From Chrysomallon squamiferum (lineage: Eukaryota; Animalia; Mollusca): a DNA stretch of 64,000 nucleotides. The stretch is taken from assembly GCA_012295275.1 (NCBI GenBank), contig CM022670.1:26412001-26476000 (forward strand). Direction: 5' to 3'. The translations under genes were made by a program, and so were the position numbers. Shown in pieces: positions 5,253 through 52,295 of the stretch; position 1 is the first letter of the stretch, and each line of letters starts with the position of its first letter. The notes below the pieces were generated by a model, which worked only from the letters and a program-made list of their open reading frames with translations, was not told the origin of the DNA and did no database searches.

Positions 5253-8200
5253 ATGAGCTTCAGAACACAAATGAAACCAGGAATAATGTTTTCTGTTTTT
5301 ACTGTTATATGGAGGAAGAAATCGTGCCTCATTCCCACTATCTGCATTTTAGTAGTTCTAGTTTACTTCCTGCGAAATGTAGACCAAATGAAGTCCGTGT
5401 CTGACGCCGTAAAAGCAAATCTTCCGGTAAGTGGACATGCGCAGTCGAGCCATTGCATAGCGTTATTACACAAATTATTTAAATACATTCAAGTTGTGTG
5501 TCGTGGACAAATGATACATTTCTTAATGCAGAATAATAGGTTAATGTTAATAAGTTTTATGTTAATAAAACATTTTTAACATTATATATGAATGTATCGA
5601 GTGTTTTTTGTTTTTAGAGTTTATAAAACATTATTATTATCATTATTATTATTATTATATGTTATATATAAATATAATCGAACACACACACACACACACA
5701 TCATATATATATATATATCGGTCTTTGTGTCATGTTACAGCTGTTGTCAAGGTGATGATCAGATTTCTGCTAGGTCATTTTTTTAATTTTATATTAAGTT
5801 ATATTATTTTATGTAATGGTATTTATGTTATTTAATTACTATTGTTTTTCGTGTTGCAACTGATTCTACTGCTGTTGATGCTATTGTTGTTGTTATTCTT
5901 ATTGATACGATTAGTATTGTCGCTGCTTTTGCTATTATTGTCATCATTTGTTTTGCAGTTGGGTTTACACAACATGAACAATAAGCTTCATGAGCTGGTT
6001 TTCAAAGCCAACACGGCCAACAGGGCGAGTGAAACTCAAGGAAAGCCAGAAGAGAATCAGGTTAAGCCTAAGGAAGACAACAAAGTGACAAGGAATGAAG
6101 CGGACAAGGAAAAGAACGATGATAAAAAACGTTCTGGCTACATTGAAGATTACAACATATTACCTGAACCTAAAGTGATTGATTCTTGGAGCGATAATCA
6201 ACTCGCATTCGAATTCTACAGGTATTTTGTTCTGATGGTACATACTTCTACTTCCACTTCTACTACTACTACTACTACTACTACTACTACTACTACCGTT
6301 ATCACAATCACCACCACTAATAATACTGTCACTGTTACTACTAATACCACCATTACCAATATTACTACCAATATTATAACTCCTACAAATACAACCACTA
6401 ATACTACTACAGTAATCACTACCACTAATACTACTACAGTATTACTACCACTAATACTACTACAGCAATTACTACCACTAACACTACTACAGTAATCACT
6501 ACCACTAATACTACTATAGCAATTACTATCACTGACAGTACTACAGCAATTACTGTCACTAACACTACTACAGAAATTACTAACTCTGACACTACTACAG
6601 CAATTACTATCACTGACAGTACTACAACAATTACTGTCACTAACACTACTACAGCAATTACTGTCACTAACACTACTACAGAAATTACTAACACTGACAC
6701 TACTTCAGCAATTACTGTCACTAACACTACTACAGAAATTACTAACACTGATACTACTACAGCAATTACTGTCACTAACACTGCTACAGCAATTACTAAC
6801 ACTAACACTACTACAGAAATTACTGTCACTAACACTACTACAGATATTACTGTCACTAATACTACTACAGCAATTACTGTCACTAACACTGCTACAGCAA
6901 TTACTGTCACTAACACTACTACAGAAATTACTACCACTAACACTACTACAGCAATTACTGTCACTAACACTACTACAGCAATTACTGTCACTAACACTAC
7001 TACAGAAATTACTACCACTAACACTGCTACAGCAATTAATTATATTACCACTAATACTACTACAGCAATTACTGTCACTAACACTACTACAGCAATTACT
7101 GTCTACACTAACACTGCTACAGAAATTACTGTCACTAACACTACTACAGCAATTACTGTCAGTAACACTGCTACAGCAATTATTACCACTAATACTACTA
7201 CAGCAATTACTGTCACTAACACTACTACAGCAATTACTGTCACTAACACTACTACAGCAATTACTGTCACTAACACTACTACAGCAATTACTACCACTAA
7301 CACTACTACAGCAATTACTGTCACTAACACTACTACAGCAATTACTACCACTAACACTAACACTACACAACAATTACTGTCACTAACACTACTACAGCAA
7401 TTACTGTCACTAACACTACTACAGCAATTACTGTCACTAACACTGCTACTACTACAGCAATTACTGTCACTAACACTACTACAGCAATTACTATCAAATT
7501 ACTACAACAATTACTACTACAACAACAACAATTACTGTCACTAACACTGCTACAACAATTACTGTCACTAACACTACTACAACAATTACTACCACTAACA
7601 CTACTAACACTGAAAACAATTACCACACTAATACTACTACAGCAATTACTGTCATTAACACTAACACTACACTGCTACAATTTACTGTCACACTAACACT
7701 GCACTGCTACAACAATTACTGTCACTAACACTACTACAGCAATTACTACCACTAATACTACTACAACAATTACTGTCACTAACACTACTACAGCAATTAC
7801 TACCACTAATACTACTACAGAAATGATTACCACTAATACTACTACAGCAATTACTACCATTATTACTACTATTCCTGTTAGCACTTGTATTACGTCTATT
7901 ACTACCGTTAATATTACTATTATTGCAACTGGTACCAAACAAGTGCTGCTTCTACTCATGTTACTATTAAGACCACAATCACTATTATTATAACTTATAT
8001 TACTATCACTATTACTATTATCCCAATTTGTTTATAATAGGTTTTAAATGAATTGTATGTCAGTGAGTCGAAAGGTTTAAAGCTAATAAACAATACAATA
8101 TCTCTGTTACTAGCAATGTTATTATTATCACTATTACTACTGTTACTACTACTTTTACCACTTTGTCTTCTACTACTGTTATTACTGCTAGTACTTTGAT

Positions 8201-50400: not shown

Positions 50401-52295
50401 ACCTGTGGTGCATATGGATTAACTCATTTTAACTGTACTTTAGAACAGCTATACTGTTGAAAAATAACTCAGTTGTATAGAAGGAGGGAATTTGACCTGG
50501 GAAGGGTCAATCAGAAAACAGAAGATAACCGATGGACACACCCTGCGACTTAGAAACGAAGAGAAATGATCTAGAAGAACGACAACGAGATGAAATGCAC
50601 TGTGGATTTTTTTTTTTTGTTGTTGTTGTTGTTGTTGTTGTTTGTTTCTTTGTTTATTTACAGTTAAATAATTCATGAAATTTTTATGTAATATGTTTCG
50701 ATATATTTACCGATATTCCGATGCATATACTAATAAAAATAATACTAATAATAAAATCTTATTTAACTCTTTTTATTGATATTGAAATTTATATTTATAT
50801 ATATATATACCGCAAATTATTTAACTGTCAAATATGATTTTGAAATATTATTTGACTATGTCTAGGTTTTGTTTCTGATGTTTAATGTAATAATAAAGTG
50901 TTTCGATTATTTATCTACATAAACGTTTACCACGTTTACCATGAAACACGACTGAGCTGATACGATTTGTGCAACAGCCGTATTCAATAATGATTTTTTT
51001 TTCTAATTTGTTTTAATGTGGTTTTCTATTTCTTTTTTCCTTTTTTTTTTTTTTTAATTGTTTTTAAAAATGGTATGGGTTGATGTTATCTACACCAATG
51101 TCACATTAATATATTTGTTAAATTACTTAAACTATCGAATTAACCTGGTGCGTGTATGTGTATGTATGTATCATAGGGCTAAATTTAGTATAAAGATTCG
51201 GGCTTTACTTATAGATATGTATTTCATAATGTGTTAATATTGTCACAAGTGTGAAGAAACAAATGTATGTATGTATAGATGTATGTAAGAAATGAACGAG
51301 ATCAGTTATGAAGTGAATAAGAAATGCCTCGTGTAGAGAGTACTAGTTGTCTTATTTATTTATGGGGTACAAGTTATCCCAAGAAAAAGAAAGCATACTT
51401 AATGTAATACCTACTGAGTAGGTTCAAGCTAATATGTTGATTTAGTGTTTTTCAACTTTGTTTACTCATATTAAACTGTCATTACTATAATAAATAAAAT
51501 GTTACTATTTTCGTATTACTGCTGTCACGATCGAGCCTTTCGTTGTAACAAAATAATGCTTTATCTTCTTGTAATCTGATAACATTTAAGGGGGTACATA
51601 ACATGTGGCTGGCTCAGTTATTATTAGTGAAGTATAAAATACACGTGTGTGTGTTTGTGTATGTTTGTTTGGATGACTAGATTTCTGTATGTATGTATAT
51701 ACGAAATTGTGTATATTTGTATATATGCGTGTGCTGTTTGTTGATAATACTACATTTGATTATTATTTTGATATGTGTTCGTGTGTGTGTGTGTGTGTGT
51801 GTGTGTGTGTGTGTGAGAGAGAGAGAGAGAGAGAGAGAGAGAGAGAGAGAGAGAGAGAGAGAGAGAGAGAGAGAGAGAGAGAGAGAGAGAGAGAGAGAGA
51901 GAGAGAGAGAGAGAGAGAGAGAGAGAGAGAGAGAGAGAGAGAGAGAGAGAGAGAGAGATGAAATATTAGTGAACTGATCAAATCGATTCCAGAACACAGC
52001 TGTTGCATAAATATATTTCACAGTTTACAATATATGTTAACTGAAAAACGTAATTAAAAAATATTATTCCCTTACTGGAAAGCTGAAAATTAAAATCCTG
52101 GATTCCCTTCACTGGAAAGAAACAAACAGCTGATGAAATTATAATATGAAAACAAATTATAATTTAAAACTATAAACATGAAAAAGTACTTACCCGCTGA
52201 ACAAACACGTTGCTAAAACTATATTTGAAAATAACTAGGAATGTCATACTCGTCACCAACACAAATATGAAAGATTTAGTCTTCAGGTGAACCAT
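44458..52295 (-). CDS. METTL24: Gene F: METTL24-like type II membrane methyltransferase, 353 aa, canonical motifs
   Basis: Exons (- strand): 52295-52194, 47900-47593, 47122-46994, 46407-46333, 45513-45375, 44766-44458 (1062 nt, open); intron 3 has a GC donor. TM SFIFVLVTSMTFLVIF; GAKEDGGWDICDD, CTVYSFGINDDWTFD, CHVYAFDPS, ILKMDIEKTE, QFVFEIH, GCHELH. Assignment of exon 1 across a 4.3-kb intron is inferred from phase and TM content. Confidence 0.88.
48650..49105. mobile_element. Long-inverted-repeat (foldback/MITE-like) element in intron 1 of gene F
   Basis: Left arm blocks tgtgtaaaat, aatgaacaggtt, tctgcgctctttggtaact are mirrored on the right by agttacaaaagaacgcaga, aacctgttcatt, attttacaca; ends imprecise. 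Confidence 0.6.
51776..51957. repeat. (GT)n(GA)n compound microsatellite
   Basis: Directly visible. Confidence 0.95.

What the first reader, a model, noticed from the sequence alone, without database searches (positions are those of the whole stretch)
5253..52295. Expanded cluster of membrane-anchored METTL24-like methyltransferases: candidate invertebrate glycan O-methylation system
Seen in sequence: six related genes or copies with one shared exon plan. Every copy that retains exon 1 starts with a short basic tail, a single hydrophobic helix and a variable stem before a class I methyltransferase domain (DGGW-x2-C, YSFG, FDP, KxDxE, ExH). Established: this is the layout of Golgi type II glycosylation enzymes; vertebrate METTL24 has no well-defined substrate; the related FkbM family includes sugar O-methyltransferases such as rhizobial NoeI; molluscs and nematodes carry O-methylated glycans whose methyltransferases are, to my knowledge, largely unidentified. 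Inference: this birth-and-death cluster may encode lumenal glycan (or other secreted-product) O-methyltransferases with diversified acceptor specificity.
Basis: partly seen in the sequence, partly recalled or inferred. Interest (0 to 1): 0.8.

Follow-up and report, generated by a model that had tools for sequence, protein, structure and literature searches.

The report
Snail Golgi methyltransferase cluster with pseudoenzymes
A snail carries a cluster of four distinct, transcribed membrane-anchored methyltransferase-family genes, two of which keep the family's active-site residues and likely put methyl groups on sugar chains, while two have lost several of those residues yet stay conserved and likely act as non-catalytic partners, which offers testable candidates for the still unidentified enzymes behind methylated mollusc glycans.

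Summary
Six copies with one exon plan are real, but they are four distinct intact genes (A, B, C, D) plus a recent duplicate block (A' truncated, B' frameshifted). RNA contigs show splicing of A, B, C and D. The host is a gastropod close to Gigantopelta aegis and the family is METTL24-like (PF13383, class I fold). Only B and C carry the full motif set. A and D have lost residues kept in 130-133 of 135 single-domain relatives, yet have open frames. A's losses are shared by its Gigantopelta orthologue, whereas the abalone orthologue keeps the residues. D shows purifying selection (dN/dS about 0.2-0.3). In 19 of 41 two-domain relatives one intact domain is fused to a well-aligned degenerate one. 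Support for glycan acceptors is indirect: one clade of relatives is fused to glycosyltransferases or LicD, one member lies head-to-head with a Golgi SAM-transporter-family gene, and a bacterial member lies in a fucose cluster. No activity is shown, and vertebrates keep METTL24 without known methylated glycans.

The parts
5253..10372 (+). Gene A, 353 aa, intact; exons 5253-5426, 5959-6221, 8760-8882, 9098-9172, 9622-9760, 10085-10372; type II anchor; degenerate site (no DGG, FQ for FD, A for E of ExH)
   Evidence: model; exons 3-6 spliced in RNA contig; orthologues
12365..16121 (-). Gene B, 292 aa, intact, full motif set; exons 16121-16002, 15044-14950, 14500-14372, 13834-13760, 13444-13306, 12685-12365
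   Evidence: model; all five introns joined in both RNA runs
16162..17458 (.). Segment X', 97% alike (substitutions only) to 3077-4353 upstream of A; B transcripts run into it
   Evidence: RNA contig 16002-16209
3077..4353 (.). Segment X, head of the duplicated unit, upstream of A (likely regulatory; untested)
17534..19070 (+). A', recent copy of A exons 3-6 without exons 1-2; 6 amino-acid and 1 silent difference from A
   Evidence: X'-A' joint present in one DNA run
21024..24844 (-). B', recent copy of B with a 9-bp in-frame insertion in exon 1 and a 1-bp deletion in exon 6 that shifts the frame before the ExH motif
   Evidence: the deletion is in no listed contig of four runs
36643..40231 (-). 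Gene D, 288 aa, intact, fast-evolving member of the B/C clade with a degenerate site; exons 40231-40112, 39124-39003, 38434-38306, 37789-37715, 37281-37158, 36939-36643
   Evidence: model; exons 1-3 covered by RNA contigs; dN/dS; trees
44458..52295 (-). Gene C, 353 aa, intact, full motif set; exons 52295-52194, 47900-47593, 47122-46994 (GC donor), 46407-46333, 45513-45375, 44766-44458
   Evidence: model; exon 1-2-3 joins and exon-3 end in RNA contigs; 72% to G. aegis P0001
45368..45525 (-). C exon 5 with flanks, 92-94% alike to B/B' exon 5 while other catalytic exons are 61-80%: recent exon exchange (gene conversion, inferred)
   Evidence: dS 0.24 against 1.40

Best explanation
This is a gastropod cluster of METTL24-like type II membrane proteins in which B and C are likely Golgi-lumen, SAM-dependent O-methyltransferases of glycans, while A (and likely D) are conserved paralogues that have lost active-site residues and would act without catalysis, as binding or regulatory partners. 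Shown: gene structure, splicing, family, fold of the Gigantopelta orthologues, residue losses and their conservation. Inferred: the anchor holds the domain in the lumen; SAM arrives through an MFS_5/SAMT-1-type carrier and binds the YSFG loop and the acid of FDP; the KxDxE and ExH residues hold a metal or base that activates a sugar hydroxyl; A binds acceptor or an active paralogue and tunes which sugars are methylated.
For: Type II charge and anchor in all five copies with exon 1 and in 121 of 133 relatives with a leader of 50 or more residues; four near-invariant cysteines (127-135 of 135), fitting lumenal disulfides. Class I fold; FkbM 2py6 Z 11.3, rmsd 3.9, 183 aligned, tied with two other methyltransferases. 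7 of 14 domain-bearing metagenome ORFs scanned are fused to GT17, GT47, GT34, GT8, GT11, GT32-type domains or LicD, four architectures in one clade; one of them lies head-to-head with an MFS_5 gene, the family of the proposed Golgi SAM carriers (10.1101/2021.07.06.451061, passages). The only plasmid match sits between GDP-fucose synthase and gmd/NodZ (hhalign 98.7%, E 1.8e-16). Snail glycans carry 3-O-methyl Man and 3/4-O-methyl Gal (PMC6272458, passages). For A: D of FDP is kept in 130 and E of ExH in 131 of 135 relatives; A and its Gigantopelta orthologue lose both plus DGG while staying 62% identical; a third fragment also has A for E (P0040); the abalone orthologue keeps them. For D: dN/dS 0.17-0.30, open frame, 4 of 5 listed variants silent. 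19 of 41 two-domain relatives join one intact and one well-aligned degenerate domain.
Against: No activity, location or SAM binding was measured. [quoted passage not shown] None of 40 long relatives from the protein searches carries a glycosyltransferase domain; the fusions come from one distant, probably viral or protist clade and the bacterial case is one locus. A keeps YSFG, KxDxE and the His; D keeps an acid at FDP; either may be active with altered chemistry. The fused degenerate domains form a clade apart from A and D, so they are an analogy only. The relatives were collected by similarity to P0001 and P0036, which favours intact motifs. Anchor against cleaved signal peptide could not be told apart.
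Confidence: 0.5

Rival explanations
1. All four genes are active glycan methyltransferases; the changes in A and D remodel the site for other sugars or positions.
For: A keeps the fold, YSFG, KxDxE and His; D has the conservative E at FDP; both are under constraint and spliced. Snails methylate several sugars at several positions.
Against: The lost residues are kept in 96-99% of 135 diverse relatives that presumably act on different acceptors; A loses three motifs at once, D most of them.
Confidence: 0.17
2. The family methylates secreted or lumenal proteins or small molecules, not glycans, as secreted METTL9 methylates histidines.
For: METTL9 passes through ER-Golgi and methylates plasma proteins (10.64898/2025.12.23.696137, passages); vertebrates keep METTL24 without known methyl-glycans; structural neighbours include protein and RNA methyltransferases at equal Z.
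Against: Apart from other methyltransferase domains and one pyrophosphatase, the fusion partners found are glycan-building enzymes, and the bacterial member sits in a polysaccharide cluster.
Confidence: 0.23
3. A and D are decaying duplicates, and A'/B' are haplotype copies wrongly placed in tandem.
For: D has a long branch (1.29); A'/B' differ from A/B by 1-5%, the size of allelic differences; contigs mix B and B' letters and 26 of 27 listed variant sites equal the other copy's letter.
Against: A is conserved with the same losses in Gigantopelta; D has dN/dS below 0.3, and 0 of 2000 simulated neutral copies stay open at 0.3 substitutions per site. The joint B-X' is bridged by an RNA contig and the joint X'-A' is in a DNA contig.
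Confidence: 0.1

Closest known systems
METTL24-like family (Pfam PF13383 Methyltransf_22); G. aegis 'methyltransferase-like protein 24' P0001 and LOC121376262 (P0036)
   Same: Domain, motifs and N-terminal anchor; B and C 68-72% to P0001, A 62% to P0036 over the core.
   Different: No member has a described substrate in the papers searched; here three B/C/D genes face one P0001-like hit, and two paralogues have degenerate sites.
FkbM-family O-methyltransferases (PF05050, TIGR01444; structure 2py6); rhizobial NoeI
   Same: Fold and order of motifs; weak profile match. NoeI makes 2-O-methylfucose (PMC6275314, passages); its FkbM membership is recalled, not tested.
   Different: Soluble bacterial enzymes; the snail proteins add an anchor, stem and conserved cysteines and miss the curated cut-offs.
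Plant DUF579 Golgi glycan methyltransferases (GXM, AGM) with IRX15/IRX15L
   Same: Golgi O-methylation of glycans, with family members of unknown activity still needed for synthesis (PMC6508755, abstract start in listing).
   Different: Another family; no DUF579 match in any Pfam scan here.
Fam20A pseudokinase with Fam20C
   Same: A secretory-pathway paralogue without catalysis that activates its active relative (PMC5865150, abstract): the model proposed for A.
   Different: Kinase fold; for A neither inactivity nor a partner is known.
Secreted METTL9
   Same: Class I methyltransferase in the secretory pathway, with reported non-catalytic Golgi roles.
   Different: Histidine methylase of another family; no sequence link was found or sought here.

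Membership tests
METTL24-like / PF13383 | Profile score above the Pfam cut-off | tested here: met
   Orthologues P0001 78.1 and P0036 54.1 bits against 22.4; single window exons score 13.9-19; spliced A and D score 155 and 139 bits on a family profile built here.
METTL24-like / PF13383 | DGGW, YSFG, FDP, KxDxE, ExH all present (genes B, C) | tested here: met
METTL24-like / PF13383 | DGGW, YSFG, FDP, KxDxE, ExH all present (genes A, D) | tested here: not met
   A keeps 5 and D 3 of 9 core positions; 104 of 135 relatives keep all 9.
Class I SAM-dependent methyltransferase | Rossmann-like seven-strand fold | tested here: met
   Models of P0001 (pLDDT 84.4) and P0036 (75.7) match class I enzymes at Z 10-11.5; the window's own spliced proteins were not folded.
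Class I SAM-dependent methyltransferase | Glycine loop after strand 1 and acid 17-19 residues later | tested here: met
   Met in B and C (G133, D156 in P0001 numbering; spacing as described in PMC3594219, passage). A has Q at the acid; D has S for G and E for D.
FkbM (PF05050 / TIGR01444) | Curated profile cut-off | tested here: not met
   TIGR01444: no hit for P0001, 13.2 bits for P0036 against 37.7; PF05050 16.5 and 20.6 against 22.7; only C exon 6 reaches 22.7.
Golgi type II glycosylation enzyme | Short basic tail, single anchor, stem, C-terminal domain | tested here: met
Golgi type II glycosylation enzyme | Golgi residence, lumen-facing domain, uncleaved anchor | not testable with these tools
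   No topology or signal-peptide predictor and no imaging; charge rule only.
Glycan O-methyltransferase | SAM-dependent transfer to a sugar hydroxyl | not testable with these tools
   Only fusion and neighbourhood evidence.
Pseudoenzyme partner (Fam20A-like) | Loss of conserved site residues with fold and frame kept under selection | tested here: met
Pseudoenzyme partner (Fam20A-like) | No catalytic activity, and action on an active paralogue | not testable with these tools
   Needs enzyme assay and co-expression pull-down.

The most novel reading that the evidence does not exclude
METTL24-like proteins are the missing animal glycan O-methyltransferases, and they work as pairs of an active and a dead domain: fused in many bivalve and annelid proteins, and as separate linked genes here, where an ancient enzyme (still intact in abalone) turned into a Golgi pseudo-methyltransferase in the Gigantopelta lineage. 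Vertebrate METTL24 and MFSD5 would then point to an overlooked lumenal methylation in humans.
Probability: 0.25. Interest if true: 0.88.

Novelty: new variant of a known kind. Interest (0 to 1): 0.63.

Why it matters
The enzymes that O-methylate animal glycans were unidentified in the reviews read (PMC6422873, PMC7614267), although methyl sugars mark snail and nematode glycans and are targets of innate-defence lectins. Short single-domain genes B and C, and their annotated Gigantopelta orthologue, can be expressed and assayed at once; a positive result would also give a first function to the METTL24 family. A and its abalone orthologue form a natural pair (residues lost against kept) to test a Golgi pseudo-methyltransferase.

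Tried and rejected
Complex prediction of P0001 76-306 with P0036 148-384 gave no answer (ipSAE 0.00, 0.00; alignments not used); it says nothing either way. No PDB sequence relative. No whole genome is held, so genome-wide copy number is untested. Genome-contig scans found no relative; phages none. No glycosyltransferase fusion in 40 long relatives. The idea that B' alone holds the native promoter was dropped when an RNA contig ran from B exon 1 into X'. B' frameshift: no listed contig shows it, but contigs drop variants, so error or real is open. The careful tree did not finish; quick IQ-TREE and FastTree were used, with long branches for A and D. Transposon-like ORFs at 25-35 kb gave no meaningful Pfam hit (5 tested). 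PMC3795332 and PMC4103367 are not held. Ten paper searches listed no title naming a METTL24/PF13383 substrate or an animal glycan methyltransferase; only listings were seen for most, subscription journals are missing and no supplements were read. Sequence look-up in earlier findings was empty. Comparison of family size with glycan methylation across taxa could not be done.

Full report
Observation. The window is AT-rich animal DNA; no genome is held. Exon models set by coordinates give six copies with intron phases 0,2,2,2,0: A (+, 353 aa), A' (+, exons 3-6 only), B (-, 292 aa), B' (-, 1-bp deletion in exon 6), D (-, 288 aa) and C (-, 353 aa). A, B, C and D have open frames. B and C are 68% identical over the core, D 38-44% to them, A 24-29% to all three. 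A/A' and B/B' are 97-99% alike in exons. All five copies with exon 1 have a basic tail and one uncharged core with the charge bias of type II proteins.

Expression. Eleven runs were listed, nine holding the stretch, two of them RNA from one study. In contigs of both RNA runs all five introns of B are joined; one contig runs through A exons 3-4-5-6. For C, one contig joins exons 3 and 2, ends exon 3 at the GC donor, and its loose end is the end of exon 1; for D, one contig has the exact ends of exon 2 with the same depth at sites in exons 1 and 3 (the D joints were not among the 15 of 45 joint rows shown). Contigs give no level or strand.

Duplicate block. The layout is X-A-B then X'-A'-B', with A's promoter side and exons 1-2 missing in the second unit. 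An RNA contig bridges B exon 1 into X' (160 and 47 letters on the two sides), and a DNA contig carries the X'-A' joint with 30 letters on the short side, so the tandem layout is probably real, though one DNA run may be the source. 26 of 27 listed variant sites in 9969-15121 equal the other copy's letter, which fits either two copies or alleles. The B' deletion is in no listed contig.

Family. Named relatives are molluscs, annelids, a nemertean, a hemichordate and a chytrid; 1502 representatives match P0036 at E<=0.001. PF13383 is met; FkbM cut-offs are not. Models of P0001 and P0036 have the class I fold, with FkbM 2py6 among the tied best matches (Z 11.3 and 10.8).

Of 184 proteins (180 fetched, 4 from the window), 135 have one well-covered domain. 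D of FDP is kept in 130, E of ExH in 131, K of KxDxE in 133, G of YSFG in 132. A and P0036 both lack DGG, have Q at FDP and A at ExH, and change the loop after YSFG in the same way, yet are 62% identical. The simplest reading is an old paralogue that lost site residues after the split from abalone and stayed under selection. D falls inside the B/C/P0001 clade (98), keeps 3 of 9 core positions, and has dN/dS 0.17-0.30 against B and C (rough, dS near saturation), with 4 of 5 listed variants silent. Among 41 two-domain relatives, 19 join an intact with a well-aligned degenerate domain, 17 an intact with a partly aligned one, 3 two intact ones, 2 are unclear; named cases include Mytilus, Pinctada, Pecten, Argopecten and Capitella. 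Seventeen of the 19 fused degenerate domains group apart from A and D. Exon 5 of B and C has dS 0.24 against 1.40 elsewhere, pointing to recent exon exchange.

Substrate. No direct test was possible. Of 60 metagenome loci I opened 26 and scanned 14 domain-bearing ORFs and 18 neighbours: 7 of the 14 are fused to glycosyltransferase domains or LicD; their methyltransferase domains are one clade (55-99% identity) with YSFG/YSIG, FDP, DxE and ExH kept. One lies head-to-head with an MFS_5 gene, the family of plant GoSAMT and C. elegans SAMT1; another has a DUF1647 neighbour, a family also seen in C. elegans glycosylation clusters (PMC7614267). The single plasmid locus (three records) places a member between GDP-fucose synthase and gmd/NodZ. 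Against: none of 40 long relatives from the protein searches has such a fusion, and vertebrates keep METTL24 (substrate unknown) without known methylated sugars, though humans also have the MFS_5 member MFSD5.

Mechanism. Inferred from the class I layout: strand 1 ends in YSFG, strand 2 in the acid of FDP that binds the SAM ribose (motif spacing as in PMC3594219), strands 4 and 5 in KxDxE and ExH (strand limits). That metal-dependent O-methyltransferases place their metal ligands at these two strand ends is recalled, not tested. B and C would methylate terminal Man, Gal or Fuc in the Golgi. A, without the ribose acid and the ExH glutamate, would bind acceptor or partner without turnover, as Fam20A does for Fam20C (PMC5865150, abstract). 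Odds: glycan acceptors for B/C about 0.6; A inactive or nearly so about 0.6; A acting on B/C about 0.3.

Papers seen: passages of PMC7614267, PMC6422873, PMC6272458, PMC6935376, PMC13410288, PMC9614988, PMC6275314, PMC3594219, 10.1101/2021.07.06.451061 and 10.64898/2025.12.23.696137; abstract of PMC5865150; listing only for PMC6508755. No supplements were read; gene tables there could already name such candidates.

Verdict. A real, expressed cluster of a known but uncharacterised family; a good bench candidate for animal glycan O-methylation, with a conserved degenerate paralogue as the new element. New variant of a known kind; interest 0.63.

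Noticed in passing
window 15382-15459 and 24104-24181: A 78-bp copy of the start of exon 5 sits in intron 1 of B and B' (81% at protein level), a trace of exon shuffling or of the B/C exon-5 exchange.
   Followed up: partly
window 47594-47829: The stem exon of C holds an internal repeat of about 126 bp (73% alike) that lengthens the stem.
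   Followed up: no
window 46993-46408: Intron 3 of C has a GC donor; an RNA contig ends exon 3 at 46994.
   Followed up: yes
window 16162-17458 and 3077-4353: X lies upstream of A on + and upstream of B on -; B transcripts enter it. A shared divergent promoter for an intact and a degenerate gene is possible. Part of it (about 16227-16520) is a dispersed repeat by contig depth.
   Followed up: partly
window 25300-27000 (+): Broken ORFs that look like LTR retrotransposon pol remains (resemblance recalled; no Pfam support).
   Followed up: partly
window 32000-35150 (-): Broken ORFs that look like a LINE (endonuclease and reverse-transcriptase end; resemblance recalled; no Pfam support).
   Followed up: partly
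window 1005-2964 and 6396-7871: A 158-bp satellite (12.7 copies) and a 27-bp satellite (53 copies) inside intron 2 of A.
   Followed up: no
window 42339-42789: Very high summed contig depth in DNA runs: a high-copy dispersed element between D and C.
   Followed up: no
L042:2-904 and 1006-6144: MFS_5 (Golgi SAM-carrier family) gene head-to-head with a 1713-aa protein joining this methyltransferase domain to GT17.
   Followed up: partly
L001:3650-4534, L046:4497-6008, L047:4686-6197, L048:585-2078: Virus-like contigs encode a membrane-anchored member of the family fused to LicD (L046-L048), beside ubiquitin-conjugating and SNF2-like ORFs in L001.
   Followed up: partly
L016 and L019: Intronless tandem pairs of family members 1-3 kb apart: tandem expansion also occurs in other eukaryotes.
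   Followed up: no
P0140 (Arion vulgaris) and P0142 (Littorina saxatilis): Other gastropod single-domain members with site changes (Q at FDP in P0140; Q and K at ExH in P0142); P0140 lies on a branch apart from A.
   Followed up: partly
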